64,000 nucleotides of DNA from a virus. Below are positions 1,428-38,743 of the stretch, one piece after another; position 1 is the first letter of the stretch; each line of letters opens with the position of its first letter. Where the stretch lies: IMG/VR virus record IMGVR_UViG_3300045988_125079, positions 32,001 through 96,000 of that record; one strand, 5' to 3'. Both the position numbers and the translations under genes were made by a program. A model generated the notes under the pieces. That model had not been told where the DNA came from. It saw nothing but the letters and a program-made list of their open reading frames with translations, and made no database searches.

Positions 1428-1432
1428 GTAAT

Positions 1433-19245: not shown

Positions 19246-20062
19246 CCCAACGATGCTCCAATACAGTAATTTTGTCGTGCTTTCCAGTGAAGATACTGTC
19301 CGTAGTGTAAACCCCGTGAATCAGTTCCGGATCGTCAAACAGATGGCCGCGTTCCTTATCCAGGATACTGTTCTCGCAGTGGCTGACATACATATCGATA
19401 TTACCAGCACCCAGTTCCTTCAGCTTCTTGGCCGAATAGAACATGGTACCGCCGTAAGAGCAAATATCGTCAATCATCAGAACCTTTTCGCCAGGCTTCA
19501 CTTCGCCAACGACATCCAGACCGAGAATCTTACCAGTCGCCCAATCGCGCTTTTTATCGCCATGGATAATATAGGCACTGCACTTTGCTCGATCCAGTGC
19601 CCAGTGAACAGTTTCCTCGTATCGTTTCATTGCCCCTGCATCTGGGAAGTAGATCACATCCGGCTTGCTCTCCTCGATTACCTGACAAATCTCACGAATC
19701 GGAGTGTGTACTTCACACCGATCGATCAGAGCGGGAGCCACGTCGCTATGAGGATCAAATACAACAACGCGGCTGAATTCACATCGATTGATCTCCTCTG
19801 CGAACCACTTGAGAGTGAATACATCATCGTCACTATGAACGCGATCCATACGGGCGTTCGGAATATACGGCATAAACAGCTCGACTTCTCCCCCGTTATC
19901 TTTTACATCCTTTGCAATCATAACGACGGCGGGAAGTTCAGCCATAGATTCAAATGTCCAGACGATGCTGATCACATTCAGATAATTGATAGCTCTATAC
20001 TTCTTGATCAGCGGAGTGCCGTCAGGGAAAGAATCGATTTTATAATAATTTGCTTTAACCAT
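19235..20062 (-). CDS. prs: ribose-phosphate pyrophosphokinase family (Prs; may instead be the NARP1 Adps type)
   Basis: LFMPYIPNARMDR, VVVFDPHS and VLMIDDICSYGGT parallel the Prs motifs IPYFGYARQDR, VDLHA and VDDMIDTGGT. Confidence 0.75.
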   Translation of the reverse strand: MVKANYYKIDSFPDGTPLIKKYRAINYLNVISIVWTFESMAELPAVVMIAKDVKDNGGEVELFMPYIPNARMDRVHSDDDVFTLKWFAEEINRCEFSRVVVFDPHSDVAPALIDRCEVHTPIREICQVIEESKPDVIYFPDAGAMKRYEETVHWALDRAKCSAYIIHGDKKRDWATGKILGLDVVGEVKPGEKVLMIDDICSYGGTMFYSAKKLKELGAGNIDMYVSHCENSILDKERGHLFDDPELIHGVYTTDSIFTGKHDKITVLEHRWDED

Positions 20063-21585: not shown

Positions 21586-21849
21586 TTACAATAACGAGTG
21601 ACAAGTTAGCCGCTTAGAATTCTCAAACATATCATCAGACCACAGCCAATTCATAGTATCTTCTTTAAGCTGATATCGGTCTTCTCTATATCCACCAATT
21701 GTCACAATTTTCCCGCAGAATTTTTTCATGTCTGAAACAAATCCAACTTTAATATCAGGGCATGGCCCAGATCGCATGCTATATATTTTCAGTTGTTCTA
21801 AATTCTGTTTTACACGCACCCTATCCCCAGGTTTGTAGCGATATTCCAT
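21586..21849 (-). CDS. small beta-barrel-like protein with CxSLL-COOH tail (LTCHSLL)
   Basis: MEYRYKPGDRVRV...WLWSDDMF...LTCHSLL. Start trimmed to the ATG aligned with paralogs. Confidence 0.7.
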   Translation of the reverse strand: MEYRYKPGDRVRVKQNLEQLKIYSMRSGPCPDIKVGFVSDMKKFCGKIVTIGGYREDRYQLKEDTMNWLWSDDMFENSKRLTCHSLL

Positions 21850-22031: not shown

Positions 22032-22298
22032 TTATAATAATGATTTGCAAGATAACAGATTTGCTAAGCCTAAAAACATCTCATCTGTCCATAGGATATT
22101 GTTTTGAGCTTCTTCTATGACATATCGATTTAAAACATACCCCATGACCGTCACAGTTTTCCCCTCAAAAGGTTTTCTTGCTTTAAAAGATCTTTTTACG
22201 ACAACTCCAAAATCTTGGGATAACATCTTATAATTATGACCTTCTTCGAAGCAATCTATCACGCGAACATGGTCTCCGGGTTTATATTGATATCCCAT
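22032..22298 (-). CDS. small beta-barrel-like protein with CxSLL-COOH tail (LSCKSLL)
   Basis: MGYQYKPGDHVRV...ILWTDEMF...LSCKSLL. AAAGGAGAG upstream. Confidence 0.7.
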   Translation of the reverse strand: MGYQYKPGDHVRVIDCFEEGHNYKMLSQDFGVVVKRSFKARKPFEGKTVTVMGYVLNRYVIEEAQNNILWTDEMFLGLANLLSCKSLL

Positions 22299-22308
22299 AA
22301 TCTCTCCT

Positions 22309-22575
22309 TTACAGCAGTGACCGACACGTAAAAGGATTAGCCAGACCGACAAACATATCATCAGACCAAATAGTGTCTTTATTTGACTCTTCGATCATGT
22401 ATCCGCCCAGTCTATATCCGGAAATCGTTACAACTTTCCCAGCAAGACGTTTTCTTGTCGGCAACGACACTCCGATTGTCAGAATGCTTTTACCAGAAGA
22501 CATATAATGGTTTTTCCCTGGTTCAAATTTATCTATCACGCGAACTCTATCCCCAAGCTTATATTTGTAATCCAA
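22309..22575 (-). CDS. small beta-barrel-like protein with CxSLL-COOH tail (FTCRSLL)
   Basis: (TTG)DYKYKLGDRVRV...TIWSDDMF...FTCRSLL. Confidence 0.65.
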   Translation of the reverse strand: MDYKYKLGDRVRVIDKFEPGKNHYMSSGKSILTIGVSLPTRKRLAGKVVTISGYRLGGYMIEESNKDTIWSDDMFVGLANPFTCRSLL

Positions 22576-24943: not shown

Positions 24944-25210
24944 TCATAATAATGACTTGCATCTAAACTGATGAGTTATTTTTTCAAACATTTCATCGCA
25001 CCAGAGCCAATTACACTCTTTTATTTTATACGATCCAAAAGATGAAATATGGTCAATATGAACTAATTTCCCACGCATTGCCATCATCTCTTCAATAACA
25101 TAATCGCTTTCCTGTTCAGCATATGGCCCAGATTTCATACAATAAAGATGACCCATACTTAAATCTTTACGGACACGAACTGTATCTCCAGGCTTATATA
25201 GATAATCCAT
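24944..25210 (-). CDS. small beta-barrel-like protein with CxSLL-COOH tail (FRCKSLL)
   Basis: MDYLYKPGDTVRV...WLWCDEMF...FRCKSLL. GAGGAG upstream. Confidence 0.7.
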   Translation of the reverse strand: MDYLYKPGDTVRVRKDLSMGHLYCMKSGPYAEQESDYVIEEMMAMRGKLVHIDHISSFGSYKIKECNWLWCDEMFEKITHQFRCKSLL

Positions 25211-25221: not shown

Positions 25222-25482
25222 TCACAAGAGAGACTTACATACAATTCGACCCTCCGGTTCAAACATTTCATCTGTCCAATGCCAATTAATTTCGTTTAAG
25301 AGATATTGACCGCATGAAAATCCCTTGATATGGACAAACTGACCACGGAATTTCATCATATCGTCATTGGTGCTATTTGAACCATACTTGTAATCAGGGC
25401 CAGATTTCATACGGTACGATTGTTTGGTACTCAAATCGGCTCGAACCCGAACTCTCTGTCCAACTTTATATTTGTAATCCAT
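25222..25482 (-). CDS. small beta-barrel-like protein with CxSLL-COOH tail (IVCKSLL)
   Basis: MDYKYKVGQRVRV...WHWTDEMF...IVCKSLL. Confidence 0.7.
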   Translation of the reverse strand: MDYKYKVGQRVRVRADLSTKQSYRMKSGPDYKYGSNSTNDDMMKFRGQFVHIKGFSCGQYLLNEINWHWTDEMFEPEGRIVCKSLL

Positions 25483-25490: not shown

Positions 25491-25763
25491 TCAAAGAAGA
25501 GACTTGCATGTAAGTGGCGTTAACGGTTCAAACATTTCATCGACGAAATAATTGCACTTACCATCTTCGATGATCTTGTACTTTCCATTTGCTTTATGAG
25601 AAATATGAACTATCTTTCCTGCCCAATTTGTTCTAATGCTGTATGTAGCGTAAGTGCTTGCATATCCTGGACCAGACTGCATTTGATATACATGTCCACC
25701 TTCAAGATGCTGCTTTACTTTAACAGCCTGTCCATTCCTGTATTTATATTTACTTTTCGACAT
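25491..25763 (-). CDS. small beta-barrel-like protein with CxSLL-COOH tail (LTCKSLL)
   Basis: MSKSKYKYRNGQAVKV...YFVDEMF...LTCKSLL. Confidence 0.7.
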   Translation of the reverse strand: MSKSKYKYRNGQAVKVKQHLEGGHVYQMQSGPGYASTYATYSIRTNWAGKIVHISHKANGKYKIIEDGKCNYFVDEMFEPLTPLTCKSLL

Positions 25764-25879: not shown

Positions 25880-26686
25880 TCATTCTCCATCAAACCAATC
25901 AGAAACTCGATCCGACATCCTGTCCATCTTTTCCTGTGCAGCCTTACAATACCTCATTGTGATTCTTTCATCGCTATGATTCAATTTCATCTGGAGAAGC
26001 TGCAGAGTATTTCCTTCGTCTTGAGTCCCCTCTGCACTCTTTAGCGCTGCCATTGCATATGTTTTTCGCATTGTATGTGTAGACAATTCAATATCAAGGC
26101 CGCACATTTTACCGGCATTTTTCAGGATACCATATATCGATCGAACATTAAGCGAACCGCCCTTCTGGCTCTGGAATAAAAACACATCTCGTGAGACTTC
26201 AAAATGCTGCTCGTCGTAATATTCTTTCAAAACTTCGGCAGCCATTTTAGGAATTTTACAGATATTTCGCTTTCCTGTTTTCTGCTCAAAAACATCAAGA
26301 TGGCTCTTTACTTTACCATTTAGTGTATAAACATCTTCCGTCTTTAGTTTTACAAGATCGCTGCAACGAAGACCGACAGAACAACCAAGAATGAACAGCG
26401 TTTTATTCCTGATTCTATATCCGACCTTACCGTTTTTACCAAGATAATCTACTACTTTTTTGAACTCCTCTTTAGATTGAATCGGACTAGCCGGAGTCGG
26501 CTTCTTTCGTCCATCGCAAGTGTAAAGACTTGTTGTTTTCGTCTTCTTTTGTTTTTTTCGAGCAGCTGTTACGGCGTCACGAATCATCTGCTGCAATTCA
26601 TCTTCAGATAACGTAATATGAGCTTCGTCAGAAGAATTAGGAAATATAATCAGCTTATCTTTTTCTTTTACCGCTGCTTCTGCCAT
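25880..26686 (-). CDS. tyrosine recombinase / phage integrase family
   Basis: GLRCSDL (Arg I), HTMRKTY (HxxR) and LNHSDERITMRYC (His and catalytic Tyr). Confidence 0.8.
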   Translation of the reverse strand: MAEAAVKEKDKLIIFPNSSDEAHITLSEDELQQMIRDAVTAARKKQKKTKTTSLYTCDGRKKPTPASPIQSKEEFKKVVDYLGKNGKVGYRIRNKTLFILGCSVGLRCSDLVKLKTEDVYTLNGKVKSHLDVFEQKTGKRNICKIPKMAAEVLKEYYDEQHFEVSRDVFLFQSQKGGSLNVRSIYGILKNAGKMCGLDIELSTHTMRKTYAMAALKSAEGTQDEGNTLQLLQMKLNHSDERITMRYCKAAQEKMDRMSDRVSDWFDGE

Positions 26687-26713: not shown

Positions 26714-26968
26714 TTACAGCAAACTTCGACACGAAAACGGTGCAGCACCTTCAAGCATTCCGTCCGACCAGAGATAGTTTCCATCATCTATATCGAGAAT
26801 ATAAAATCCACTTTTGTATCCTACGATTTTAGTAGTCATCCCTTCATAACTCGACATATGTAAACCAAGTCCGCAGTAATTCCCAGGACACGGTCCAGAT
26901 ACCATTGGAAGATTTTTTACCGGAGATTCTATTTTGACTTTTTGTCCAATTTTATATTTGTAATTCAT
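26714..26968 (-). CDS. small beta-barrel-like protein with CxSLL-COOH tail (FSCRSLL)
   Basis: MNYKYKIGQKVKI...YLWSDGML...FSCRSLL. Start trimmed to the ATG aligned with paralogs. Confidence 0.7.
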   Translation of the reverse strand: MNYKYKIGQKVKIESPVKNLPMVSGPCPGNYCGLGLHMSSYEGMTTKIVGYKSGFYILDIDDGNYLWSDGMLEGAAPFSCRSLL

Positions 26969-27034
26969 ACTATACCTTTCTTTCACACTCTCTTCTAATT
27001 GGTTGGAGGCCAGAGAGGAGTTCAAAGCGAGAGG

Positions 27035-27282
27035 ATTTAATTTGATTGGCGAAGCGATAAATTAAATACGAACGATTTGAATCCGCGCGTCCGCCGAAGG
27101 ATCAAGGGCGACTCCAGCTTCGCTGGGTCGCCTGCGATCCGCAGGTCGGACCTGGCTGAATGCCAATGCGGGTGGAAGATCCCCGATGCGCTCCTCCCGG
27201 AGGGCGAGCGAGGGGATCGACATGCCTTACCATTATCTCAACAGTTGGAATCTCCAGCTGCCTAAATTTCATTTAGTATTCA
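27035..27282 (+). ncRNA. GC-rich structured element, copy A (unclassified family)
   Basis: Nested perfect helices: ATTTAATTT/AAATTAAAT, GGCGAC/GTCGCC, CCTGCG/CGCAGG, GATCCCC/GGGGATC. The 3' module has hairpin CAGTTGG-AATCT-CCAGCTG, hairpin CTAAAT-TTC-ATTTAG, then TATTCA. The G-U pair forms only in plus sense. Strand and RNA-versus-DNA nature are uncertain. Confidence 0.4.
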
Positions 27283-27299
27283 AGAGAGATCAAACAGTT

Positions 27300-27662
27300 T
27301 TACTTTTCAACAATAGAATCCGAATCATCTATTTCTTCTGACTCTTCATCGAGAGCGTCATCTAGTTCCAATAAATACTGATTCAAGGCGTCTCGGCCAG
27401 CCTCAAGCATTGCTCGATGGATTTCAGGTTCTGCATCCTTTAAAAGATCCCCACAAAGTGCAAGATCCTCAGCTTCAAACCCCGTAGATTCCATATCCTT
27501 GATGGCATCCGCGACATCTGAAGGGGCCCAAAATACCATAGCACGATGTTCGTCTTCATCGAGGACTTCAACATCGTCATTTACCACTGCTCTCACATAA
27601 TCAGCGACATTTTCAAGCAGCTCAGGTGGCACAGAACCGTCACGACACATAATTTCAATCAT
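27300..27662 (-). CDS. highly acidic small protein (120 aa; DNA-mimic/anti-defence candidate)
   Basis: Asp/Glu-rich throughout (for example LDDALDEESEEIDDSDS). Start at MIEIMCRDG with GGAGGA upstream. Immediately downstream of the RT. Confidence 0.6.
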   Translation of the reverse strand: MIEIMCRDGSVPPELLENVADYVRAVVNDDVEVLDEDEHRAMVFWAPSDVADAIKDMESTGFEAEDLALCGDLLKDAEPEIHRAMLEAGRDALNQYLLELDDALDEESEEIDDSDSIVEK

Positions 27663-27675
27663 AAATCCTCCTTTG

Positions 27676-28908
27676 TTATGCGGCATCTTTTGGACGAAGA
27701 TCGTCTTTAATCATAGCCATCACATCAACATGGTATTTGTTGTTGGCTTTTGAAATCAACGCTTTGATTTTGTCTTTTTCTACCATTTTATAATAGCTGA
27801 TAAGACCATTAAGCTCCTGAACGTCTTCAATTGTCCAAGGAGCATTTTCCTTTTTACAGCGGATATAGTTGGACATCATAATCTTGAATGTCTTGATGTT
27901 ACGCCATCCAACCGTGATTTCATTGTTCTGATTCCACATCAAGCCGAGCACCCAGTTTTTACTCGAATGACGATTGCCGTAATGAGTTTTTTCTTCATTC
28001 AGAGTAAATGGAGCATGGATATACGCCAGAATATTTTTGATTACATCCTGCATCTCCATATAGTCAAAACTCAAATAACAACTAATCGTGATATCATCCG
28101 CATATCTTGTATAAGTAAAATCACGAGTAATGCCATCTTTCATTTTGAAACCATGACGAATTTTTCGACTCAGCAAATGATCAAATGGAATCATCATGAC
28201 ATTCGTAAGCCAAGGACTCAAGGGGCTTCCCTGCGGTAATCCATTGCGAAGAAAAGCAATCTTTAATGCATCACTCAACGCTTCATGGCCGCCGAATGGA
28301 TCTTGCATGATAAGAGCGAACGGATAAATCACACTCAACATTCCCATAACAAACTCTGGATTAGAGCTGGGGAAAAATCCGTGAAAGTCGAATTTTACAG
28401 ACCAGTTATTTTCATAAATAACCTGCTCTTTTTCTCCTGTTGTCGGGTTCGTTTTAGTCCGCACATGCCCTTCCTGATGTTTTTTCACAGCAGTCAAAGT
28501 AGACCGATGCGGAACATAAGCATGTGCCGCAGTATGATAGTCTGCAAGCATAAAGCTTTTTAACAACGTTTGCAGTTCGTTCAATGCGTCACTAAGGATT
28601 TTGTCTGGAGCATCAATTGGCCGCATGCCACCTGTTTTTTTGGGAATTTCATAGTGAGTATAGTGAACAGACATATCCGGTTCAGATTCGAGCTGTTCGT
28701 ATTTCTTATTAAACGCTTCGAGTTCTCGAATCATTCGGTTAATATCTGTCATGGCTCTCAAACGTGGGGTAAGTTCGTCTCTACAAACAGTCACAGTCGA
28801 AGTAACATCTTCTCGATATTTCAATTTCTCAGACTCGATAATGCCTGCAAGAATCTCATCGATTGTGATCTGTCTCGTTTTAGGGGCTGCTTTGTATGTA
28901 ATATACAT
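27676..28908 (-). CDS. reverse transcriptase (retron/Abi/DRT-like, stand-alone RT domain)
   Basis: RT motifs KKTGGMRPIDAP (1), HAYVPHRS (2a), KFDFHGFFPS (3), GLPQGSPLSPWLTN (4), YTRYADDITIS (5) and KNWVLGL (7). No endonuclease, maturase or Cas domains. Confidence 0.85.
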   Translation of the reverse strand: MYITYKAAPKTRQITIDEILAGIIESEKLKYREDVTSTVTVCRDELTPRLRAMTDINRMIRELEAFNKKYEQLESEPDMSVHYTHYEIPKKTGGMRPIDAPDKILSDALNELQTLLKSFMLADYHTAAHAYVPHRSTLTAVKKHQEGHVRTKTNPTTGEKEQVIYENNWSVKFDFHGFFPSSNPEFVMGMLSVIYPFALIMQDPFGGHEALSDALKIAFLRNGLPQGSPLSPWLTNVMMIPFDHLLSRKIRHGFKMKDGITRDFTYTRYADDITISCYLSFDYMEMQDVIKNILAYIHAPFTLNEEKTHYGNRHSSKNWVLGLMWNQNNEITVGWRNIKTFKIMMSNYIRCKKENAPWTIEDVQELNGLISYYKMVEKDKIKALISKANNKYHVDVMAMIKDDLRPKDAA

Positions 28909-28929
28909 ATTATCTTCCTCTTATCGTGA

Positions 28930-29165
28930 TCTAAATAGGTCTCAGCTCATTCCAAGCCTGATCGCAGTGCGGATCTTGACTATGTTGTTGAGCGATACAT
29001 CGTAAAATTTCACCCTGCAGTGACGCTGATGACGTCGACTACCTGGAGGATGGCCGTTGCCTCCGCGGTACCTCCATGGCCATCGGCGGCTCGCGGGGCA
29101 CCTCCCTCGTTCTACCTTTGCGAACCAATCGGATCTCCGGTTGGACTGTGGTTAACAGTAATTCA
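28930..29165 (+). ncRNA. GC-rich structured element, copy B (same family as A and C)
   Basis: Helices GATGGCC/GGCCATC and CCGCG/CGCGG. The 3' module is CTACCTTTGCGAA, hairpin CCAATCGG-ATCT-CCGGTTGG, hairpin CTGT-GGTTA-ACAG, then TAATTCA. Confidence 0.4.
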
Positions 29166-29185
29166 TCACGATTTTATTTCAAATT

Positions 29186-29860
29186 TTAACTTGCAATAAC
29201 ACTATGCTGATAAGGATCAACAACAATCATCTTGTTGACTTTATTCTTCCCCATAGCAAATCCGATGAAATTCGTAACAGCCTGACAGCAGATTTCACGA
29301 ACTGTCGGAGCAAGTCCCTGAACAACGCCACATGCAGAAACGGGCGTACTTGCCGTGGCTTCTTCGTGAGTGAAATCCATAGAATTTTTGAGATTTTCCT
29401 TCATGGATTCATCCATCCAATCAGCCGCCCAACACTGAGCGTCGTAAAGACCGGTTCGGATATCAAACACGCCCTTAATATTGGGATTATATTTGTTCTT
29501 CTCCATGAAATCTTTTCGAATTTCAATGTTGTCAACAGCCAGGAAAACATATCCCTGAACCTGTTCACCATGCCAACCATTGGGTTTGATGATGATATCG
29601 TCCTTCGCGTCAGGATTAATCATGCAGATGAGATTTGCAACAGCTTCAACCTTCGGATGACCAATATCCTGCTGGAAAAACATTTGGTTCACGATATTCT
29701 TCGATTCAACGATGTCCATATCCCAAAGCGTAAAATTAGTGAGGCCGTATCGAGCCAACAGCTCAGCCACAGTCGAACCAACAGAACCACAGCCAATGAT
29801 ATGCACCTGGCCACGAATTTCTTTAGGATTGAAAATCATCTCAATCTTGCTCAGATTCAT
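29186..29860 (-). CDS. ThiF/MoeB/E1-like adenylyltransferase (short, no obvious catalytic-Cys domain)
   Basis: HIIGCGSVGSTVAELLARYGL is a Rossmann GxGxxG motif at the N-terminus. 224 aa. Confidence 0.75.
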   Translation of the reverse strand: MNLSKIEMIFNPKEIRGQVHIIGCGSVGSTVAELLARYGLTNFTLWDMDIVESKNIVNQMFFQQDIGHPKVEAVANLICMINPDAKDDIIIKPNGWHGEQVQGYVFLAVDNIEIRKDFMEKNKYNPNIKGVFDIRTGLYDAQCWAADWMDESMKENLKNSMDFTHEEATASTPVSACGVVQGLAPTVREICCQAVTNFIGFAMGKNKVNKMIVVDPYQHSVIAS

Positions 29861-29877: not shown

Positions 29878-30840
29878 TTAATCCTGAAATGCATCAATGT
29901 CGTTATAATACGGCCAGCAACTCGAATTACCGACTGCTTCCAATTCTTCAGGATGCTCTTCGTAATACTTGGCGAGATTGCTTTTTGCCGGCACTTTCGG
30001 AGCGGCGCTGCCAGTTACCGTCTTCTTCGACTCTTCTTTTTTTGTCCCGACCAACGGGGTTTTCGGGTACGTAACGGTGGAGCCGTATACCTTACTTGCA
30101 CCCGCGCCTCCTGCAGAATATCCTCCATTGCTTCCAATTGCGTTTGCGCTGTAATTGGTATTTCCGGTCCAATTCCCTGTCGCGCCATATACAGGTGTTG
30201 TGGCAATTTTGTTCTTAACAATCTGGTCTGCGTTTTCGAGAAATCGAGAAGAATCAAAATCACCAACGGTGACATTCACATCCTCTCCTTCATAGATAAC
30301 GTTTGCCTTCAGATCAATAACCCGAACATTATACTCACGCCGCTTGTTCCAAATCATAAAGATTTCATAGCTATCCATCGGCATAGTATCAACGAAACGC
30401 CACTGGTCTTCCATATCTGTAGCACTCGGGGTGACTCCCATATTGACATGAGAATGACCTTGAAAATGCAGACTGTTAAAATCCTCATCGGGCAGCTTCG
30501 CGTACCACATAGAATACTCTCCCCAATCGGTATTCACGGTCGCTCCCGTGACAGTCTGGGGATAAAGCAGAATCTTAGTAATCTGAAAGTGAGTATCATC
30601 GATTCGATTCACCGTGCCACACCACGCGACTTCGGACGAGAAGTGGTTAATCAGAGCGAACATCTGATGATATGCTTCGTAGGTGAAATTCACTGTGATT
30701 GCATTCTTCTGCTTTACTGCAGGAAATTCTGCGCTATATGTAAACTTATCACTGCGGATATAATTCATAGCCATCAGCTGTTCATAAAGCTTCTGTGCTG
30801 CGTTCTTTGCGTACTCCTGTGAAATCTTAATCGGCTTCAT
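29878..30840 (-). CDS. JAB/MPN (JAMM) metallopeptidase with Gly/Ser-rich C-terminal extension
   Basis: HFQGHSHVNMGVTPSATD matches HxH-x7-S-xx-D. A low-complexity tail follows. Confidence 0.75.
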   Translation of the reverse strand: MKPIKISQEYAKNAAQKLYEQLMAMNYIRSDKFTYSAEFPAVKQKNAITVNFTYEAYHQMFALINHFSSEVAWCGTVNRIDDTHFQITKILLYPQTVTGATVNTDWGEYSMWYAKLPDEDFNSLHFQGHSHVNMGVTPSATDMEDQWRFVDTMPMDSYEIFMIWNKRREYNVRVIDLKANVIYEGEDVNVTVGDFDSSRFLENADQIVKNKIATTPVYGATGNWTGNTNYSANAIGSNGGYSAGGAGASKVYGSTVTYPKTPLVGTKKEESKKTVTGSAAPKVPAKSNLAKYYEEHPEELEAVGNSSCWPYYNDIDAFQD

Positions 30841-30854: not shown

Positions 30855-32327
30855 TCAAGCAGCCGCCGTTTCCTTTTCTTTCTTTAAGATTTCGAACACC
30901 TCTGCGACTGTATAAAGATTACCAGCATCGTCCTCAAGATATTTCTTGGTAGAAATGGTTCGTTCATTGAACAGATCATGCATCAATTCGGAAACCACCG
31001 TAGAATCACCCCAGTTCAGGTAAGAACTGGAGCAGATAATAGTAGTAAGAGTCCCAATGAAATCATGATTCTGAGATAACGATTCAAAGGTCGCTTCATA
31101 GCCACCGTAGCAAGCATGGCGATCAATGTGCGGCTGACGGATACGATTTTCCATCATCTCCGGATGATCTTCCATATCACACTGAGTGACAACACGAACA
31201 CGATCATCAGAATTCACGCGCCATTCACAATATGTGCGGATCTTAAAGCGATGTTCTTTCCAAATAGCGCAGAAGAATTCTTTCGTTTCCTCAAAAGAGT
31301 ACGGGCTCTTCTGATAGATGTAGTTTCGTGCATCCCGTTTGTTCTCGACACTGTGCCGGAAAGCGCCTTCATCACAGTCATTCAAAAAGCCGGTGTAACC
31401 AACATACAGGTTGTCATCGCTCTTTCGGAGAAAGCTCAGAACTTTATTCGCTTTCAGATAATTTACAATAGCTGCCTCGTCTTCGTCTGTACAGCAAGCA
31501 CGATTACGAATTGCTTCAAGACGAATCTGCGCATCGTCCAGCTTGCTCCGATACTGGCGAATCTGATCGAAAGTATCCGTGATCCGACGTTCATAGCTGC
31601 GGATTTCTTCTTCTCCGCGACTAATAATCGAGTCATAATTGGCACTGCAGAATCCCTTCAGGCTTGCAGCCAATTTCTTTCCATAGAAATCGCCAGCGTC
31701 ATAGATCTTCTGCATGGCATCGCAGAACTTGGCATCCTCTTGATTGTATAAAAACTGGATAATGGCCTTTTCTTCTTCTGTAATCGGCACTTTCTTAAAG
31801 CACCAAGGAGTCAGACGGGGAAAACAACTCGCCGCCATATGCATAGCCTGCATAATTTTTTGACGGCCAACAAAGATGATAGTTCCCTTCTTTTTCTCAT
31901 TCTGGTAAACCGTTACATCACCAGCCTTATCAATGTACTGTGAGACATCATCAAGTTTCTTCCAGCCGAGCTTCTTATAATCCTCGTTATATTCTTCGCT
32001 CTTTTTCATGATTTCTGTAGCATTATCGGTATCGAGGATATTAACCAGAACACCATAACGGAAAGTCTTAAAAGGACTGTCTTCGTGAACAAACGTCTCT
32101 TTCGTCAGTTCGCTCTCCTCAGAGCTAAAATAACTCGTGATAACCTGCAACTGAATGCGGCCGCCGATCTCATTCATCGCCTTCAAACGTTCCTCGTTCA
32201 GAAACATTCTCATAACAGCCAGCAGCGTGTTGTCTTTCACTTCGGTATCGTTCTGAGAAAGGATATTCTGATAAGCATCGTCACACTCATTTGTGCCAAG
32301 CTTAACAATAATCGGGTTGAAAGCCAT
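30855..32327 (-). CDS. hypothetical protein (490 aa) in the ThiF-JAB cassette
   Basis: Long ORF. AGGAGGAAAAATT precedes the ATG. The segment QPHIDRHACYGG might be an E2-like His...Cys site, but this cannot be judged by eye. Confidence 0.7.
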   Translation of the reverse strand: MAFNPIIVKLGTNECDDAYQNILSQNDTEVKDNTLLAVMRMFLNEERLKAMNEIGGRIQLQVITSYFSSEESELTKETFVHEDSPFKTFRYGVLVNILDTDNATEIMKKSEEYNEDYKKLGWKKLDDVSQYIDKAGDVTVYQNEKKKGTIIFVGRQKIMQAMHMAASCFPRLTPWCFKKVPITEEEKAIIQFLYNQEDAKFCDAMQKIYDAGDFYGKKLAASLKGFCSANYDSIISRGEEEIRSYERRITDTFDQIRQYRSKLDDAQIRLEAIRNRACCTDEDEAAIVNYLKANKVLSFLRKSDDNLYVGYTGFLNDCDEGAFRHSVENKRDARNYIYQKSPYSFEETKEFFCAIWKEHRFKIRTYCEWRVNSDDRVRVVTQCDMEDHPEMMENRIRQPHIDRHACYGGYEATFESLSQNHDFIGTLTTIICSSSYLNWGDSTVVSELMHDLFNERTISTKKYLEDDAGNLYTVAEVFEILKKEKETAAA

Positions 32328-32483: not shown

Positions 32484-32714
32484 TTAACGGGCGTTATCAT
32501 GCTTCGCGACGACCGTGATATAGCATGCATCACCGACGCCCAGAGCAGTCAGAGACATGTTCAGCTTGTCGGGGGTCAGGATCGTACCATCCAGAGTAGC
32601 CTGAGCAGCGCTGAAATCAACGCCATTCTCAGTCAGGATCTCACGGGGAGTCTTAGTAGAAGCAGCGGGAACGGTGTTACGGTTGCCATTGGTAACGAGA
32701 GTAACGAAAGTCAT
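32484..32714 (-). CDS. ThiS/MoaD-like beta-grasp (ubiquitin-like) protein lacking a Gly-Gly end
   Basis: VTLVTNGNRNTV...TPREIL...GVD...ATLDGTIL...LGVGDACYITVVAKHDNAR parallels the ThiS/MoaD pattern (vNGe..v...tv.eLl....vavNg.iv....L.dGD.veiv). GC-rich codons. Confidence 0.55.
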   Translation of the reverse strand: MTFVTLVTNGNRNTVPAASTKTPREILTENGVDFSAAQATLDGTILTPDKLNMSLTALGVGDACYITVVAKHDNAR

Positions 32715-32834: not shown

Positions 32835-33272
32835 TTACTCAGCGTCAGCAGTGTGCTCAGGCTCGACCTCGTCATCGATGTTGATAGCTGCATTCATAGC
32901 GGCCTCATCAGCAGCGATGCTCTCCATTGCCGCATCAATCTGAGCCTCGATCTTCTCGCAGTTGACAATGGTCAGACCCAGATAGTCGCGAACCCATGCC
33001 TTGATGGCATCAGGAGTCTTCAGGTCGGCGGGCACCGGACGGCTCAGAACTGCAACCTTCTCACCGGTAACAGAATCGTTTGCAAACACGACACCGTTCT
33101 TGGAGATATCGTCCTTAGAATCGACCATCATGGCGCACACCGGAGTCTTGTCCTTGCCTTCGCCCTTGTACAGAACCAGAGCATCAGGACGGAACTTGGT
33201 GACCTTCTTCAGAGTCTCAACATTGAACTTGGAAGCGACGAACAGGGAATTGAACTTAACAGTTGCCTTCAT
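32835..33272 (-). CDS. hypothetical protein (145 aa, acidic C-terminus)
   Basis: ORF track. ATG start. GC-rich codon usage like the 76-aa gene. Confidence 0.65.
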   Translation of the reverse strand: MKATVKFNSLFVASKFNVETLKKVTKFRPDALVLYKGEGKDKTPVCAMMVDSKDDISKNGVVFANDSVTGEKVAVLSRPVPADLKTPDAIKAWVRDYLGLTIVNCEKIEAQIDAAMESIAADEAAMNAAINIDDEVEPEHTADAE

Positions 33273-33502: not shown

Positions 33503-33730
33503 TTATAATAGCGACTTGCAACAAATCTGATCGGAACATGGTTCCCATAGCCAATTAGGACACCATGAAATATGTATTTCACCATGTGAAAATGGATCGA
33601 TCATATCAACAATAATCTGTCCTTCTTCGTCAACAGCCACAATTTTCCCTCGCTTATGATAGTTGGTATCAGTGGCCGAGCATTCATTTCCAATTCTTAC
33701 CATCTGTCCGATACGAAATTTATATTCCAT
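33503..33730 (-). CDS. small protein with CxSLL-COOH tail (ICCKSLL)
   Basis: MEYKFRIGQMVRI...WLWEPCSDQICCKSLL. Confidence 0.7.
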   Translation of the reverse strand: MEYKFRIGQMVRIGNECSATDTNYHKRGKIVAVDEEGQIIVDMIDPFSHGEIHISWCPNWLWEPCSDQICCKSLL

Positions 33731-33739: not shown

Positions 33740-33985
33740 TCATAGCAAAGACTTACATTCAAACGAAGGGCAGCGATCAAAATAGTCTGGTGATTTTCGC
33801 CATCGATACCCTTTCTTTAGCGGCGGATAACCAACAAGTGACACTTCATCTTCTAAAAGTTCCACAGTGAGTGTTCCATTAGGTGCAATGTCGACTACTT
33901 TGCCAAGTTTTCTTTGTGCCTCATCGCACCACATGTCATCAATATCAGTCGTTCTGACAAGATCCCCAATTTTAAATTTAGTCAT
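33740..33985 (-). CDS. small protein with CxSLL-COOH tail (FECKSLL)
   Basis: MTKFKIGDLVRT...DRCPSFECKSLL. Confidence 0.7.
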   Translation of the reverse strand: MTKFKIGDLVRTTDIDDMWCDEAQRKLGKVVDIAPNGTLTVELLEDEVSLVGYPPLKKGYRWRKSPDYFDRCPSFECKSLL

Positions 33986-33997: not shown

Positions 33998-34234
33998 TCA
34001 CAACAACGATTTACAAACAAATGGCTTTGTTTTTACCTTCACCCAATTATCAGCAGTGAGCCACCATTCATAACCAGCCCCTACGTCTTCTCCGCTGCCG
34101 ATATCGGGCATTGCCTCAAGCATTTCAACAACGATATAGTCAACGTCTACTGCCTTCACGATTCCTTTCTTCCCGACATTCCCAGGAGCCCACATATGGG
34201 GAGCCGAAGCGACAATATCACCAACCTTAACCAT
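33998..34234 (-). CDS. small protein with CxSLL-COOH tail (FVCKSLL)
   Basis: MVKVGDIVAS...VKTKPFVCKSLL. Confidence 0.7.
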   Translation of the reverse strand: MVKVGDIVASAPHMWAPGNVGKKGIVKAVDVDYIVVEMLEAMPDIGSGEDVGAGYEWWLTADNWVKVKTKPFVCKSLL

Positions 34235-34508: not shown

Positions 34509-34589
34509 TGGTGCGGCTAGAGGGACTTGAACCCTCACCCGAAGACCAGATCCTAAATCTAGCGTGTCTGCCGATTCCACCATAGCCGC
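34509..34589 (-). tRNA. tRNA-Leu(UAG)
   Basis: Acceptor GCGGCTA/TAGCCGC. Anticodon loop TTTAGGA. Long variable arm. T arm GAGGG-TTCAAGT-CCCTC. CCA is encoded. Confidence 0.85.
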
Positions 34590-34728
34590 ATATAAATTAG
34601 GTACACCTGCACTCCCGATTCTCCAAGCAGGACAACTTCCATTTCGGACCACTACATCCGAAACATTAGGGCGCAACAAGGAAGTCGTGGCTATTTTATT
34701 GATCGTACTTTTACCACTATGTACCTAT

Positions 34729-34851
34729 TGGTGCCGCAGAGCTGAGTCGAACAGCTACTGTGCTCACATCATCATCCTCTACCCTATCCTTGTCATGACT
34801 AAGAATTCGCTGTAAAGGAATCACCATGATTATTGCATTACCTCTTGCGGC
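34729..34851 (-). ncRNA. expanded tRNA-like RNA (123 nt) with acceptor stem, T arm and CCA
   Basis: 5' GCCGCAA pairs with 3' CTGCGGC-A-CCA. T arm AGCTG-TTCGACT-CAGCT. The interior is about 47 nt too long for a tRNA; it holds stem ATTCTT/AAGGAT with loop AGTCATGAC. The AUAU leader precedes the 5' end as at genuine tRNAs. Confidence 0.4.
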
Positions 34852-35061
34852 ATATAAAATGTTCAGGCCGGATCATCTTGCTGTTTAACCACTGTTTCGT
34901 ATTCCCGCTATCGTTCATGAACTCTCATCATCGATTGCTTCGTGGCACCTGAACCCCCATTTTGTTAGAGACCTAATGGGCAAAGCTGTCTACCTACACC
35001 GGTTGTGAACGGACATACCCGGCTGGATTCAGACACTGGAGTCTCAAACCGTTTCGTGTCG

Positions 35062-35135
35062 TGGAGCAGTCAACGAGAATCGAACTCGCCCATCCTGCTT
35101 GGAAGGCAGGCGTACCACCACTATACGATGACTGC
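35062..35135 (-). tRNA. tRNA-Gly(UCC)
   Basis: Acceptor GCAGTCA/TGACTGC. Anticodon stem CCTGC/GCAGG with loop CTTCCAA. T arm GCGAG-TTCGATT-CTCGT. CCA is encoded. Confidence 0.85.
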
Positions 35136-35354
35136 ATATAATTCCCAGCTCAACTTTCATTGGCTGGGCTCGGCTTAACTTTGGCCTATTGCATTCGATA
35201 CAACACGTTCGCAAGATTATATCAAAAGAGCCGAGAATAATAGACTTCCTCTGCAGAAAGGTAATAGACAGAGGCTTTCGTTAACCCCTTTCGGGGTGGT
35301 ATCCCGCACAGGCGCGGCCGGATCTGACCGCTAAAGACCCTACCCATACGAGAT

Positions 35355-35440
35355 TGGTGCTACCGACCCGACTTGAACGGGCACGTCGTTACCGACAAGA
35401 GATTTTAAGTCTCCGGTGTCTGCCATTCCACCACGGTAGC
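35355..35440 (-). tRNA. tRNA-Leu(UAA)
   Basis: Acceptor GCTACCG/CGGTAGC. Anticodon loop CTTAAAA. Long variable arm TGTCGGTAACGACGT. T arm GCCCG-TTCAAGT-CGGGT. CCA is encoded. Confidence 0.85.
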
Positions 35441-35527
35441 ATATCAAAGCTGTCTGTCCAGCAGTCAACCGTCTTTCCGATTTGCCAAACCGTTTTACCC
35501 AATAGACTCCCGACTCGATCGAGCCGG

Positions 35528-35610
35528 TGGTGTTTCGGATGGGACTTGAACCCACATGCTTGCGCAGAAGTTTTTGAGACTCCCCTGTCTGCCGATTCCA
35601 GCACCGAAAC
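35528..35610 (-). tRNA. tRNA-Leu(CAA)
   Basis: Acceptor GTTTCGG/CCGAAAC. Anticodon loop CTCAAAA. Long variable arm. T arm GTGGG-TTCAAGT-CCCAT. CCA is encoded. Confidence 0.8.
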
Positions 35611-35650
35611 ATATATGCTCGTCTTTCCGAGCCGCCACTGCTTGCGCAGG

Positions 35651-36562
35651 TTACTTCATATCATTCAGTACAGGGATGCTGGTATCACCGCCGACATAAG
35701 TAGGAAGCTTACCATCCCACTTTTCATACATCTGCTGCTGAATCAGCCGGTCAGTCAGAGACTCAGAGATGATTTTATTCGCCTCGGCTTCTGCGTTCGC
35801 CTTGGAAATCTTGGTCTGATTCTCAATCTCCTGCGCCTCGTCATTGCGCTCGGCCACAAAAGACTTGTTAATAGCAGCCTGAACAGACGCATCGTCGTAC
35901 TCGATGCCATCCTTCATACCAAGAACAGTAATCGTGATACCGCGCTCTGCAAAATACTCAGTCACATCCTTGCGGACATAATCCATAATCTCGGCCTTCT
36001 TCTCAAGGATCTCATTCATGGTGTACTTAGCGCACATTTCAACAAAGTCAGCTTCAACACGAGCACGGATTTCAGTATCCATAATCTCGGAGAGCTGCTT
36101 GTTATTGTAGGAATACAGGAACTTGACTGCATCGTTTTCAGTGTAGATCTGAGCAGAGCAGTTCATACCGACGGAGAAGCCAATAGACTCTTTGCTTTCG
36201 GCAGAGATGGACTGGTTGACAGTGCTGGTGCCACTATCCTTGCCCTCGGACCATTCACGAGTAACAGGAGTTCTATTGACGACGACTAACATATTATCCG
36301 GAACCCAAGTACCAATAATGTCAGTCGGCGACAGATGTCGCTTCGAGTAAGTAATGTACACCTGCTTGGCTGCCACCTTTGCCTCGGCGAGCATTGCCTC
36401 ACTCTCAAAGGACGCCTGATTTTCCCCACCCTCTGAAAGTGAAATCAGAAATGCAGTTTCATGAGGTTCGATTGTATGCACCTCTTTCTTAGTGCACCCC
36501 GTAAATGTCATCGCCATCACGATTGCACATGAAACTACGAAAATCTTTTTGAATTTCTTCAT
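35651..36562 (-). CDS. SPFH/band-7 (stomatin/prohibitin-like) lipoprotein
   Basis: Signal peptide with lipobox MTFTG-C. SPFH-like core followed by an Ala/Glu-rich helix (KANAEAEANKII). Confidence 0.7.
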   Translation of the reverse strand: MKKFKKIFVVSCAIVMAMTFTGCTKKEVHTIEPHETAFLISLSEGGENQASFESEAMLAEAKVAAKQVYITYSKRHLSPTDIIGTWVPDNMLVVVNRTPVTREWSEGKDSGTSTVNQSISAESKESIGFSVGMNCSAQIYTENDAVKFLYSYNNKQLSEIMDTEIRARVEADFVEMCAKYTMNEILEKKAEIMDYVRKDVTEYFAERGITITVLGMKDGIEYDDASVQAAINKSFVAERNDEAQEIENQTKISKANAEAEANKIISESLTDRLIQQQMYEKWDGKLPTYVGGDTSIPVLNDMK

Positions 36563-36574
36563 TCGTTCCTCCTT

Positions 36575-36799
36575 TTAATTTTTGAATAGAATATATACCA
36601 CAGCTCCAATCGCAAGCGACAGAGCTACAGACACCGAAAAAGCCAACTCGCTAATACGGCCGTAAAGAGAACTTATGCTTCCTGTTGCCATTTGAACAAG
36701 CGAGATGTGCCGCAGGAGCTTTTCGAAAATATCATCGAGACTCAAAAACGAAACAACCGATGCGCAGGCTGCCAGCAATAAATCTTTATGTTTTTTCAT
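36575..36799 (-). CDS. small membrane protein (74 aa)
   Basis: Two hydrophobic segments. Immediately upstream of the SPFH gene, in an NfeD-like position. Confidence 0.55.
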   Translation of the reverse strand: MKKHKDLLLAACASVVSFLSLDDIFEKLLRHISLVQMATGSISSLYGRISELAFSVSVALSLAIGAVVYILFKN

Positions 36800-36872
36800 A
36801 GCTTACCACCTCAGAATCCGGTCTCAGCTTTGCCATAAATTGGGTCATGATGACAAAACTCACACATTTGAA

Positions 36873-37544: not shown

Positions 37545-37566
37545 CTTGATTTACTCCTTTTTTAAA

Positions 37567-37824: not shown

Positions 37825-37870
37825 TTCATTTTACCTCATTTGTTTAAATTGTTTCGTTCGTACATTATTA

Positions 37871-38737: not shown

Positions 38738-38743
38738 ATATAG

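What the first reader, a model, noticed from the sequence alone, without database searches (positions are those of the whole stretch)
27676..28908. Stand-alone reverse transcriptase in a phage-like genome, next to the ThiF-JAB cassette
The 410-aa protein has complete RT motifs 1-7: KKTGGMRPIDAP, FDFHGFFPS, GLPQGSPLSPWLTN, YTRYADDITIS and KNWVLGL. It has no maturase/X, endonuclease or Cas1 domain and no DGR-type motif 4. It resembles retron/Abi/DRT-class RTs more than group II intron RTs, but it lacks the retron VTG triplet (WVLGL instead).

It is followed by a very acidic 120-aa protein. The pair is bracketed by two related GC-rich structured elements (27035-27282 and 28930-29165). Defence-type RTs normally sit in bacterial islands, so one embedded in a lytic-looking phage module may indicate counter-defence or a retroelement parasite.
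Basis: partly seen in the sequence, partly recalled or inferred. Interest (0 to 1): 0.7.

Follow-up and report, generated by a model that had tools for sequence, protein, structure and literature searches.

The report
Phage retron with several template RNAs
A large gut phage carries a retron-type reverse transcriptase with at least three retron-style template RNA genes, no recognisable toxin, and a conserved link to a ubiquitin-like modification cassette, so it is a retron variant that probably does something other than classical bacterial anti-phage defence.

Summary
ORF 27676..28908(-) is a 410-aa reverse transcriptase with all the quoted motifs. A 120-aa acidic protein (pI 4.05) follows it, and two GC-rich non-coding elements flank the pair.

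The RT is not stand-alone. HMMs and PDB matches put it among retron RTs, not group II, DGR or DRT. Both flanking elements are retron-type msr-msd RNA genes. A third lies 12 kb away at 40849..40547(-). Each has an a1/a2 closing stem, a G directly after a1, two hairpins, and a variable GC-rich stretch ending in AG before a2.

The RNA architecture recurs in about 160 related loci, at 2-7 copies per locus, with strong covariation. A model built without the window sequences gave 104 hits, all on the RT strand.

The msd-like core is a local hot spot of divergence: 57% identity against 95-100% in the flanks, in a genome whose RT protein is 100% identical.

The family is seen only in metagenomic contigs, mostly 70-160 kb, from animal guts. 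It sits immediately downstream of a Ubl / 490-aa / JAB / ThiF cassette in 135 of 140 loci. No known retron effector is present.

Function is inferred only. The likeliest reading is production of several RT-DNAs used in phage-host or phage-phage conflict.

This is a new variant of a known kind.

The parts
27676..28908 (-). Retron-clade reverse transcriptase, 410 aa. Catalytic YADD at YTRYADD. Region X reads AVKKH and region Y reads VLG.
   Evidence: ORF. RVT_1. Retron RT HMMs. Retron RTs are the 12 best PDB sequence matches. Invariant catalytic residues across 16 diverse homologues.
28923..29172 (-). ncRNA 1, retron msr-msd type, directly upstream of the RT. a1 is 29172..29165 (ATCGTGAT). The putative branching G is 29164. 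Two msr hairpins span 29159..29125. The variable GC-rich msd-like core follows. a2 is 28930..28923 (ATCACGAT), preceded by TTTAG.
   Evidence: a1/a2 covaries in relatives (GTTTGTGAT/ATCACAAAC, GTTTCTGTAAT/ATTACAGAAAC, ATCTGCAAT/ATTGCAGAT). Hypervariable core.
27300..27662 (-). Acidic 120-aa protein (pI 4.05) that starts 13 nt after the RT stop, behind an AAGGAGG. It is found downstream of the RT in 71 of 144 loci, and those listed carry RTs at least 60% identical to this one.
   Evidence: No family or PDB match. The AF2 model is unusable at pLDDT 46.
26988..27288 (-). ncRNA 2, same architecture, downstream of the acidic gene. a1 is 27288..27282 (CTCTCTT). G is 27281. a2 is 26994..26988 (AAGAGAG), preceded by AATTAG.
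   Evidence: MFE closes a1/a2, z = -3.2. Homologous copies at the same position in L004, L015, L022, L024 and L058 have different a1/a2 sequences.
40547..40849 (-). ncRNA 3, same architecture, 12 kb from the RT, in the spacer between ORF 41062..41406(-) and the Bro-N gene 39072..40364(-). a1 is 40849..40841 (CATCGAGAT). G is 40840. a2 is 40555..40547. It shares TTCGCAAAGGTAG.ACGAGG with ncRNA 1.
   Evidence: It is the only window hit of covariance model R1, which was built without window sequences (16.7 bits, E=0.15).
29186..29860 (-). ThiF-family E1-like adenylyltransferase, 224 aa, the gene immediately upstream of ncRNA 1 and the RT.
   Evidence: PF00899 at 3.4e-20. Upstream of the RT in 135 of 140 loci. 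In the reverse direction, 79 of 79 ThiF-seeded loci have the RT downstream.
29878..30840 (-). JAB/MPN+ metalloprotease-like protein, 320 aa, with the JAMM motif HSHVNMGVTPSATD.
   Evidence: Motif read from the translation. No Pfam hit. Conserved with the RT in 135 of 140 loci.
30855..32327 (-). 490-aa protein of unknown fold, with invariant P-H-I and Cys406. Part of the conserved module.
   Evidence: AF2 pLDDT 89. No PDB fold match below E=0.4.
32484..32714 (-). 76-aa ubiquitin-like candidate. The family ends in a conserved K-x-D-(N/G)-A followed by 0-4 variable residues.
   Evidence: Ubl identity is inferred from size, position and C-terminal pattern, not from a family hit.
32835..33272 (-). 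145-aa protein of unknown function, the first gene of the conserved module.

Best explanation
This is a phage-encoded retron variant. One retron-clade reverse transcriptase serves several msr-msd-type non-coding RNAs: three in this window, and 2-7 in the flanks fetched around the RT of relatives.

Each RNA folds so that an a1/a2 stem brings its 3' part next to a G that directly follows a1. Two hairpins after the G are the likely RT recognition module.

By analogy with retrons, the RT would prime on the 2'-OH of that G. It would then copy the GC-rich segment that ends in AG just before a2. This would yield several distinct multicopy RNA-linked single-stranded DNAs during infection.

Shown here:
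- the RT class;
- the RNA architecture and its covariation;
- the multiplicity of RNA genes;
- the local hypervariability of the template core;
- the absence of any known retron effector;
- the conserved placement behind a Ubl / p490 / JAB / ThiF cassette in a family of gut phages.

Inferred:
- that cDNA is made, and made by 2'-5' priming;
- that the products act in phage-host or phage-phage conflict, for example as abundant fast-evolving nucleic-acid decoys or sensors, rather than as the antitoxin of a toxin as in bacterial retrons.
For: RT class:
- PADLOC RT_II-A 1.3e-38, RT_XIII 1.3e-36 and RT_I-A 4.6e-30.
- NCBIfam retron_St85_RT 1.6e-43, against group II at 75 bits and Drt2 at 40 bits.
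- The 12 best PDB matches are all retron RTs.
- YADD, LPQG, the H of region X and the G of region Y are invariant in 16 homologues down to 42% identity.

RNA:
- 21 copies from diverse loci fold independently into G + 4-5 nt + hairpin 1 + hairpin 2.
- a1/a2 is kept through dozens of different sequences.
- On 14 seed sequences, 97.6% of cells pair against 70.6% shuffled, 13 of 15 pairs have compensatory changes, and the covariation score is 0.878 against 0.30 shuffled and about 0.1 slid.
- Model R1 found 104 hits at E<=1 in 71 loci, all on the RT strand and mostly just upstream or downstream of the RT.
- On that alignment 97.8% of cells pair and 14 of 15 pairs are compensatory.
- 62% of the CM hits have an a1/a2 stem of at least 8 bp ending exactly before model position 1, against 2.1% at random G positions.
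- All three window RNAs close a1/a2 in the MFE fold.

Hypervariability:
- Window against L002 gives 57% identity in the msd bin and 95-100% in the flanks, with the RT protein identical.
- Among 42 genomes, pi is 0.25 in the core, 0.107 at RT third codon positions and 0.07 in the msr part.

Context:
- ThiF, JAB and p490 lie upstream in 135, 135 and 131 of 140 loci.
- Downstream genes differ between lineages.
- 79 of 79 in the reciprocal test.
Against: - No cDNA or msDNA has been observed. 2'-5' priming is assumed from architecture only.
- The retron hallmark motifs are degenerate: VLG for VTG, and AVKKH for NAXXH.
- RT scores are below NCBIfam's curated cut-off (149 bits against 235).
- Rfam's retron msr model does not match.
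- The msd-like region is not one long hairpin as in classical retrons. It is a 150-250-nt multi-hairpin region, and where reverse transcription would stop is unknown.
- Covariance models built from distant relatives detect the window's own copies poorly: nc3 at 16.7 bits (E=0.15), nc2 at 6.2 bits, nc1 not at all. Support for nc1 and nc2 therefore rests on position, direct homology to L004-type copies, and folding.
- The seed sequences for the covariation test were picked by a hairpin descriptor, which inflates the percentage paired.
- No effector is identified, so the 'tripartite' retron logic is not fulfilled.
- The conserved neighbourhood could be synteny within one phage lineage rather than a functional link.
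Confidence: 0.72

Rival explanations
1. This is a classical tripartite retron used by the phage for superinfection exclusion or abortive infection against competing phages. The effector is unrecognised: the acidic 120-aa protein, p490, or the whole Ubl/JAB/ThiF cassette. It would be held in check by the RT-msDNA complex.
For: - Retron logic as described in PMC7736814.
- Tight conserved linkage of the RT with the cassette.
- The acidic gene starts 13 nt after the RT stop.
- Prophage-borne retrons are known (my knowledge).
Against: - None of the neighbours matches any PADLOC effector model, apart from the generic E1 Rossmann stretch of ThiF.
- The acidic protein is missing from about half of the loci.
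- A toxin/antitoxin design does not explain 2-7 different template RNAs per RT.
Confidence: 0.15
2. The RT, with its RNA-DNA product, is itself a substrate of the adjacent E1/JAB machinery. Its C-terminal alanine would be adenylated and conjugated to a target, as CD-NTases are conjugated by Cap2 and released by Cap3 in type II CBASS.
For: - The RT C-terminal residue is Ala in 61 of 118 homologues (plus 5 Gly) against 5.5% Ala overall, on tails of different lengths.
- 43 of 84 distinct tails in the loci end in Ala, often as IKADL[SRK]A.
- This resembles the conserved end of the cassette's Ubl-like protein, VVKAD(N/G)A, which is followed by 0-4 removable residues.
- The E1 gene is always the immediate upstream neighbour.
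- The precedent is PMC10097602.
Against: - The tail similarity is short and was not tested statistically. The homologues are related, so terminal Ala may be inherited.
- About half of the tails do not end in Ala or Gly.
- The cassette already has its own Ubl.
- No E2 was identified: the p490 fold search found nothing.
Confidence: 0.1
3. This is a selfish or decaying retroelement that rides in the phage genome with no benefit to the phage.
For: - No function is demonstrated.
- The RNA genes are multiplied and dispersed.
Against: - Catalytic residues are invariant.
- The RT is under purifying selection: pi is 0.023, 0.008 and 0.107 at codon positions 1, 2 and 3.
- The RT keeps the same position in about 160 loci down to 37% identity.
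- Retron cDNA does not include msr or a1/a2, so the RNA genes cannot spread by retrotransposition (inference).
Confidence: 0.03
4. This is a DRT2-like system in which the upstream RNA templates rolling-circle cDNA that encodes a new gene, or a DGR, or a group II intron.
For: - An ncRNA lies upstream of an RT of about 400 aa.
- There is a weak Drt2 HMM hit (2.2e-10).
Against: - Drt2 scores 40 bits against a cut-off of 390, and group II scores 75 against 300.
- Rfam finds no intron RNA.
- The ncRNAs have no repeat anywhere in the window.
- There is no adenine-specific variation: the non-consensus fraction is 0.149, 0.153, 0.165 and 0.186 at A, C, G and T positions.
- The architecture (closing stem plus G) is retron-like.
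Confidence: 0.02

Closest known systems
Bacterial retrons (msr-msd ncRNA plus RT; Mestre et al. 2020 types I-XIII). The nearest by HMM are type II-A (St85/Sen2 family), XIII and I-A (Ec78/Ec83).
   Same: RT clade. The ncRNA lies upstream of the RT on the same strand. An a1/a2 inverted repeat closes the RNA. A G follows a1 directly. Stem-loops follow the G. The most conserved residues of region X (H) and region Y (G) are kept.
   Different: Encoded by large phages known only from metagenomes, not by bacterial defence islands. There are 2-7 ncRNA genes per RT, some far from it. There is no recognisable effector. VTG is replaced by VLG and NAXXH by AVKKH. The msd-like region is long (150-250 nt), multi-hairpin and hypervariable. 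The RT is fixed behind a Ubl/JAB/ThiF cassette.
Stand-alone (msr-msd)-RT cassettes in branches of retron RT clades 2 and 11 (PMC7736814).
   Same: A retron RT plus ncRNA without an associated effector.
   Different: Those are bacterial and described with a single ncRNA. Whether this family belongs to either clade was not tested, because no phylogeny was made.
[quoted passage not shown]
   Same: A retron-like RT in a large phage with no linked effector. A long non-coding stretch upstream was suspected to hold the ncRNA. Function is unknown.
   Different: gp206 is 501 aa with a 200-aa N-terminal domain and did not appear among matches in the phage collection. No ncRNA structure or multiplicity was reported there. 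No ThiF link was reported.
Type II CBASS Cap2 (E1-E2) and Cap3 (JAB) acting on the CD-NTase C-terminus (PMC10097602).
   Same: A nucleotide-polymerising enzyme encoded next to an E1-like and a JAB protein. The enzyme's C-terminus is enriched in a small residue.
   Different: The enzyme here is an RT. The E1 is short (224 aa) with no E2 fused. A separate Ubl-like gene is present. Conjugation is entirely untested.
Diversity-generating retroelements of phages.
   Same: A phage-borne RT next to a hypervariable sequence.
   Different: There is no TR/VR pair, no Avd and no adenine-specific changes. The RT is of a different clade. The variable sequence is non-coding.

Membership tests
Retron | RT belongs to the retron/retron-like RT clade. 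| tested here: met
   The best HMMs in PADLOC and NCBIfam are retron RTs. The 12 best PDB sequence matches are retron RTs. The score is below NCBIfam's curated cut-off for the St85 family (149 against 235), so it is not a member of that particular subfamily. No phylogeny was made.
Retron | Region Y has a VTG triplet and region X has a NAXXH motif (PMC7736814). | tested here: inconclusive
   VLG aligns to the VTG of Ec83, and AVKKH aligns to NAKIH. G322 and H144 are invariant in the family, while T, N and A are not kept. The source calls G and H the most conserved residues.
Retron | A contiguous ncRNA has a1/a2 inverted repeats, a branching G at the end of a1, and msr stem-loops. | tested here: met
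   Rfam's msr family does not match, so the RNA is a new sequence family with the retron layout.
Retron | Produces msDNA, a single-stranded DNA joined 2'-5' to the RNA. | not testable with these tools
   Needs nucleic-acid gels, cDNA sequencing or a debranching assay.
Retron | A third component: an effector protein or domain co-evolving with the RT. | tested here: inconclusive
   No known effector model matches. A conserved neighbour set exists, but its role is unknown.
Group II intron RT | Maturase/X domain and intron RNA domains around the ORF. | tested here: not met
   TIGR04416 scores 75 bits against a cut-off of 300. Rfam finds no intron domain at gathering or at E<=5.
DGR | A TR/VR repeat pair with adenine-specific differences, and a DGR-clade RT. 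| tested here: not met
   No second copy of any ncRNA segment exists in the window beyond a 20-nt msr match between nc1 and nc3. Variation shows no A bias. No DGR model is among the hits listed.
DRT2 (UG2) | Drt2-family RT. | tested here: not met
   NF041746 scores 40 bits against a cut-off of 390 and covers only residues 221-353.
Type II CBASS-like conjugation of the enzyme | E1 and E2 activity plus JAB, and an enzyme C-terminus that is conjugated. | tested here: inconclusive
   An E1-like protein and a JAMM motif are present. No E2 was found. C-terminal Ala is enriched. Conjugation is not testable here.

The most novel reading that the evidence does not exclude
The phage uses one retron RT to make a panel of fast-evolving RT-DNAs, and the RT-DNA particle is coupled to the neighbouring ubiquitin-like conjugation machinery. 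The RT's C-terminal alanine tail mimics the Ubl tail (KADxxA against KADNA). It would be adenylated by the ThiF-like E1 and attached to host or phage proteins, with JAB reversing it. That would be a protein-conjugated retron deployed by a virus: a new way of delivering or anchoring nucleic-acid decoys or sensors, and the first functional link between retrons and bacterial ubiquitin-like systems.
Probability: 0.1. Interest if true: 0.9.

Novelty: new variant of a known kind. Interest (0 to 1): 0.72.

Why it matters
Retrons are currently understood as bacterial anti-phage toxin-antitoxin-like systems with one RNA, one RT and one effector. This family departs from that picture in four ways.

- It is large: at least 1,304 database proteins at E<=1e-5.
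- It lives in phage genomes.
- It multiplies the template RNA instead of carrying a toxin.
- It lets the template core evolve faster than synonymous sites.

The family raises the question of what reverse-transcribed DNA does for a virus, and makes that question testable. It offers natural multi-template retrons, which could be useful for multiplexed RT-DNA production or editing. It also points to a possible link with ubiquitin-like conjugation.

The family appears to be common in human and animal gut viromes. Its RT clusters hold hundreds to more than a thousand member sequences.

Tried and rejected
1. Direct MAFFT alignment of the two flanking elements showed no convincing similarity. Their relatedness only appears at the level of architecture and through homologues.

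2. MAFFT/RNAalifold on 21 msr segments gave a poor alignment with only 3 pairs predicted. It was replaced by per-sequence folding and a seed of similar-geometry sequences.

3. Covariance models R1 and R2 work across relatives but are weak on the window itself: nc3 at 16.7 and 11.6 bits, nc2 at 6.2 bits, nc1 undetected. The window subtype has a 1x1 internal loop and a 4-nt loop in hairpin 2. A third model was not built.

4. Rfam, at gathering threshold and at E<=5, gave no match to the three RNAs.

5. A search for msd complementarity elsewhere in the window, testing the guide or spacer idea, found nothing beyond chance 11-16-mers.

6. A DGR-like adenine bias in msd variation was absent.

7. The promoter and terminator scan around the locus was at chance level.

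8. p490 as an E2-like enzyme (motif QPHIDRHAC): the AF2 model is confident (pLDDT 89), but Foldseek against the PDB gave nothing below E=0.4. The idea is not supported.

9. Acidic protein: no family or PDB match, only 3 homologues by the word-indexed search, and AF2 pLDDT 46, so no fold search was run.

10. Literature: no paper in the held library describes phage-encoded retrons with several ncRNAs, or a retron-ThiF link.

11. Phage collection: only one unannotated human-faecal contig (MT835544) carries a close homologue.
Full report
**1. Observation**

- Pfam RVT_1 matches residues 88-312 at E=2.9e-16.
- No other domain is detected by Pfam, NCBIfam, PADLOC or PHROGs.

An acidic ORF follows.
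- The longest reading is 27300..27686 (128 aa).
- Homologues are 111-120 aa, and an AAGGAGG precedes the ATG at 27662.
- The protein is therefore 120 aa, with pI 4.05 and 37 acidic against 8 basic residues.

The two GC-rich elements are there. GC is 0.53 overall and 0.56-0.57 in their cores, against 0.40 in the RT gene.

**2. What the RT is**

The best profile matches are all retron RTs.
- PADLOC: RT_II-A 1.3e-38, RT_XIII 1.3e-36, RT_I-A 4.6e-30.
- NCBIfam: retron_St85_RT 1.6e-43 and retron_Ec67 1e-25, against group II RT/maturase at 75 bits (cut-off 300), Drt2 at 40 bits (cut-off 390) and Drt3a at 25 bits.
- The 12 best PDB sequence matches are retron RTs: Ec83, Ec78, Ec86, Ec67, the St85 family and Kva2.

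In the alignment to Ec83, the query's VLG sits on VTG and AVKKH sits on NAKIH.

Across 16 family members down to 42% identity, the following are invariant:
- YxDD (YTRYADD);
- LPQG;
- H144 of region X;
- N318, W319 and G322 of region Y.

Mestre et al. (PMC7736814) name VTG and NAXXH as retron hallmarks, with G and H as the most conserved residues. The hallmarks are therefore half kept. All scores are below the curated cut-offs of named retron subfamilies. This is a divergent branch, not a member of a named type.

**3. What the flanking elements are**

I fetched 80 related loci from IMG/VR, with RT identity of 41-100% on contigs mostly of 70-150 kb.

The spacer upstream of the RT always begins with a short sequence whose reverse complement lies just before the RT start. 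The pair changes in a compensatory way between groups:

| Group | a1 | a2 |
|---|---|---|
| Window group | ATCGTGAT | ATCACGAT |
| L071 group | GTTTGTGAT | ATCACAAAC |
| L076 group | GTTTCTGTAAT | ATTACAGAAAC |
| L080 group | ATCTGCAAT | ATTGCAGAT |

A G follows the first arm in each of these groups. AG, or more rarely GG, usually precedes the second arm.

After the G, 21 copies from diverse loci fold on their own into the same layout. That layout is 4-5 unpaired bases, hairpin 1 (5-10 bp of free sequence), then immediately hairpin 2 with a one-base bulge or 1x1 loop. This is the retron msr-msd layout: a1/a2, branching G and msr stem-loops.

The element downstream of the acidic gene has the same layout with different a1/a2 sequences. 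Examples are CTCTCTT/AAGAGAG in the window, AATCTCTTTT/AAAAGAGATT in L004 and AAAATCACTTT/AAAGTGATTTT in L015.

**4. A third copy**

A descriptor scan of the whole window looked for an a1 of at least 7 bp, then a G, two adjacent hairpins, and AG plus a2 170-430 nt downstream.
- It returned seven hits, all on the minus strand.
- Three have the clean architecture: 29172..28923, 27288..26988 and a new one at 40849..40547.
- Shuffled sequence gave 2 passes per three shuffled strands.

The third copy shares TTCGCAAAGGTAG.ACGAGG with copy 1. It lies in a spacer next to a Bro-N gene. All three MFE folds close a1/a2 and form the two hairpins, with z-scores of -1.9, -3.2 and -2.9.

**5. Family-wide test**

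The seed was 14 msr segments of similar geometry from loci other than the window.
- 97.6% of cells pair, against 70.6% in shuffles.
- 13 of 15 pairs have compensatory changes.
- The covariation score is 0.878, against 0.30 shuffled and about 0.1 with partners slid.
- The seed was chosen by a hairpin descriptor, so the percentage paired is inflated. The variety of pair types is not.

Model R1 built from this seed gave 104 hits at E<=1 in 71 loci (806 kb, both strands).
- Every hit is on the RT strand.
- Hits cluster just upstream and just downstream of the RT.
- On that alignment 97.8% of cells pair, 14 of 15 pairs are compensatory, and the score is 0.813 against 0.244.

A separate feature co-occurs with the hits. 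In 62% of them, an a1/a2 stem of at least 8 bp ends exactly before model position 1, with its partner 190-363 nt downstream. The figure is 2.1% at random G positions.

Copy number per locus, within the flanks fetched, is 2 in 62 loci, 3-4 in 17 and 1 in 2. It reaches seven in L126, and there are tandem triplets after the RT in L093, L099 and L104.

Weak point: R1 and R2 detect the window's own copies poorly. Hairpin 2 of this subtype has a 1x1 loop. For nc1 and nc2 the evidence is position, direct homology with compensatory changes to L004-type copies, and folding.

**6. Hypervariable core**

The window and L002 encode identical RT proteins and are 95-100% identical in DNA over the flanks.
- Identity falls to 57% in the 100-nt bin covering the core of ncRNA 1.
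- It falls to 77% in the bin covering ncRNA 2.

Diversity among 42 genomes of one subgroup:

| Region | pi |
|---|---|
| ncRNA core | 0.25 |
| RT third codon positions | 0.107 |
| msr part | 0.07 |

Changes keep the local hairpins. They are ordinary in spectrum: 434 transitions, 290 transversions and no adenine bias.

The cores match nothing else in the window. Whether the pattern comes from diversifying selection, allele exchange or local hypermutation is open.

**7. Context**

The RT family has at least 1,304 database members at E<=1e-5. Almost all are unnamed metagenome proteins on contigs of up to about 150-200 kb.

In GTDB genomes it occurs only on MAG contigs. Most are binned with Oscillospiraceae, Lachnospiraceae, Defluviitaleaceae and other Clostridia from human, ruminant, rabbit, chicken and termite guts.

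No cultured phage in the phage collection has a close homologue.

Other features found in the window:
- 12 tRNAs, a tmRNA and a twister-P5 ribozyme;
- NAD synthase, NAMPT and RlaP;
- PhoH, Bro-N and a homing endonuclease;
- a protein of the Pfam RdRP family (PF05183).

In 135 of 140 loci with enough upstream sequence, the RT follows the same block: p145, a 76-85-aa Ubl-like protein, p490, a JAB protein (JAMM motif HSHVNMGVTPSATD) and ThiF.
- This holds down to 37% RT identity.
- Downstream genes differ by lineage: integrase and DUF8224 here, an RdRP-family protein with Sak and SSB in L083, a resolvase in L085, and arrays of small ORFs in L087.
- Seeding from ThiF, 79 of 79 loci have the RT downstream, although these are the closest 80 of 328.
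- No neighbour matches a known retron effector.

**8. Mechanism**

The best-supported reading is a retron that makes several RT-DNAs from several templates with one RT. Steps 2-7 above are shown. cDNA synthesis, 2'-5' priming and any biological role are inferred.

Three features fit a role in an arms race better than the toxin-guarding role of bacterial retrons:
- the lack of a toxin;
- the multiplication of templates, each with its own a1/a2 so that it folds on its own;
- the fast-evolving cores.

The RT-DNAs could act as abundant decoys, or as sensors, for host or rival-phage factors.

**9. A lead on the cassette**

The Ubl-like family ends in a conserved K-x-D-(N/G)-A followed by 0-4 variable residues. 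This is the pattern expected of a precursor trimmed by JAB to expose a C-terminal Ala.

The RT's own C-terminus is Ala in 61 of 118 homologues, against 5.5% Ala overall. It is Ala in 43 of 84 distinct tails in the loci, often as IKADL[SRK]A.

In type II CBASS the CD-NTase C-terminus is conjugated by an E1-E2 protein and released by a JAB protein (PMC10097602).

An analogous conjugation of the RT is possible but untested. No E2 was found, and shared ancestry may explain part of the Ala excess.

**10. Verdict**

The finding is real and more interesting than 'stand-alone RT'. It is a phage-borne, multi-template, effector-less retron variant, fixed next to a ubiquitin-like cassette, widespread in gut viromes and, as far as the held literature shows, undescribed.

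The nearest published note is the retron-like RT of Staphylococcus jumbo phages, for which an upstream ncRNA was only suspected.

Noticed in passing
window 21586..21849(-), 22032..22361(-), 22309..22503(-), 24944..25210(-), 25222..25482(-), 25491..25763(-), 26714..26968(-), 33503..33730(-), 33740..33985(-), 33998..34234(-), 42067..42321(-), 56791..57264(+), 57261..57605(+), 57602..58021(+), 58003..58320(+): Fifteen small ORFs (64-157 aa) end in the same C-terminal tag, C-x-S-L-L (mostly CKSLL or CRSLL), although their N-terminal parts differ. They account for 15 of the 18 ORFs of 50-160 aa that end in LL. In the distant relative L087, many of the small ORFs on the RT strand end in DFV, AFV, DFL, DFI or DML instead. 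This looks like a shared sorting, processing or modification signal.
   Followed up: partly
window 26714..27025(-): The middle of this CRSLL-tagged small protein gene is a second local divergence hot spot. It is 60-70% identical to L002 and L003 in a 100-nt bin, with 97-100% in the flanks.
   Followed up: no
window 32484..32714(-), and homologues in L002-L159: The 76-aa protein upstream of p490 belongs to a family whose C-terminus is a conserved K-x-D-(N/G)-A followed by 0-4 variable residues (R, AA, TGMN, VVM and others). This fits a ubiquitin-like precursor ending in Ala rather than Gly-Gly after trimming.
   Followed up: partly
window 30855..32327(-): The 490-aa module protein gives a confident AF2 model (pLDDT 89, pTM 0.49) with no structural match in the PDB below E=0.4. 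P399, H400, I401 and C406 are invariant. It may be a new fold or a multi-domain protein that needs domain-wise searching.
   Followed up: partly
window 46628..46708(-): A twister-P5 ribozyme matches above Rfam's gathering score (45.9 bits against 37.6) inside the phage genome.
   Followed up: no
window 38351..38737(-), and tRNAs at 23..3368 and 34512..39005: A phage-encoded tmRNA (92 bits) and 12 tRNA genes lie on the same strand as the RT module.
   Followed up: no
window 15829..16581(-), 17278..18756(-), 19235..20062(-); also L082 18362..21326: NAD synthase, NAMPT and a weak PRTase-domain match lie together. The related contig L082 adds RNA ligase and a Macro domain.
   Followed up: no
window 60450..62696(+): A 748-aa protein matches the Pfam RdRP family PF05183 at 2.1e-13. 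Relatives L083 and L084 carry a similar gene right after the RT.
   Followed up: no
window 25880..26686(-) and 4066..5100(-): A tyrosine recombinase lies 1 kb downstream of the RT module and is conserved there in close relatives. A second protein has an MrpR-type core-binding domain. The phage may therefore not be strictly lytic.
   Followed up: no
L126 2928..10131; L093 510..2850; L099 5674..7976; L104 5669..8304: Some relatives carry many retron-type ncRNA genes: up to seven in L126, and tandem triplets directly after the RT in L093, L099 and L104. Each has its own a1/a2 sequence.
   Followed up: partly
L109, L112, L125, L133: Four RT loci from MAGs show none of the ThiF, JAB or p490 genes in 6 kb of upstream flank, yet still have retron-type ncRNAs next to the RT. 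In L119, ThiF lies downstream of the RT. These exceptions could show whether the RT works without the cassette.
   Followed up: no
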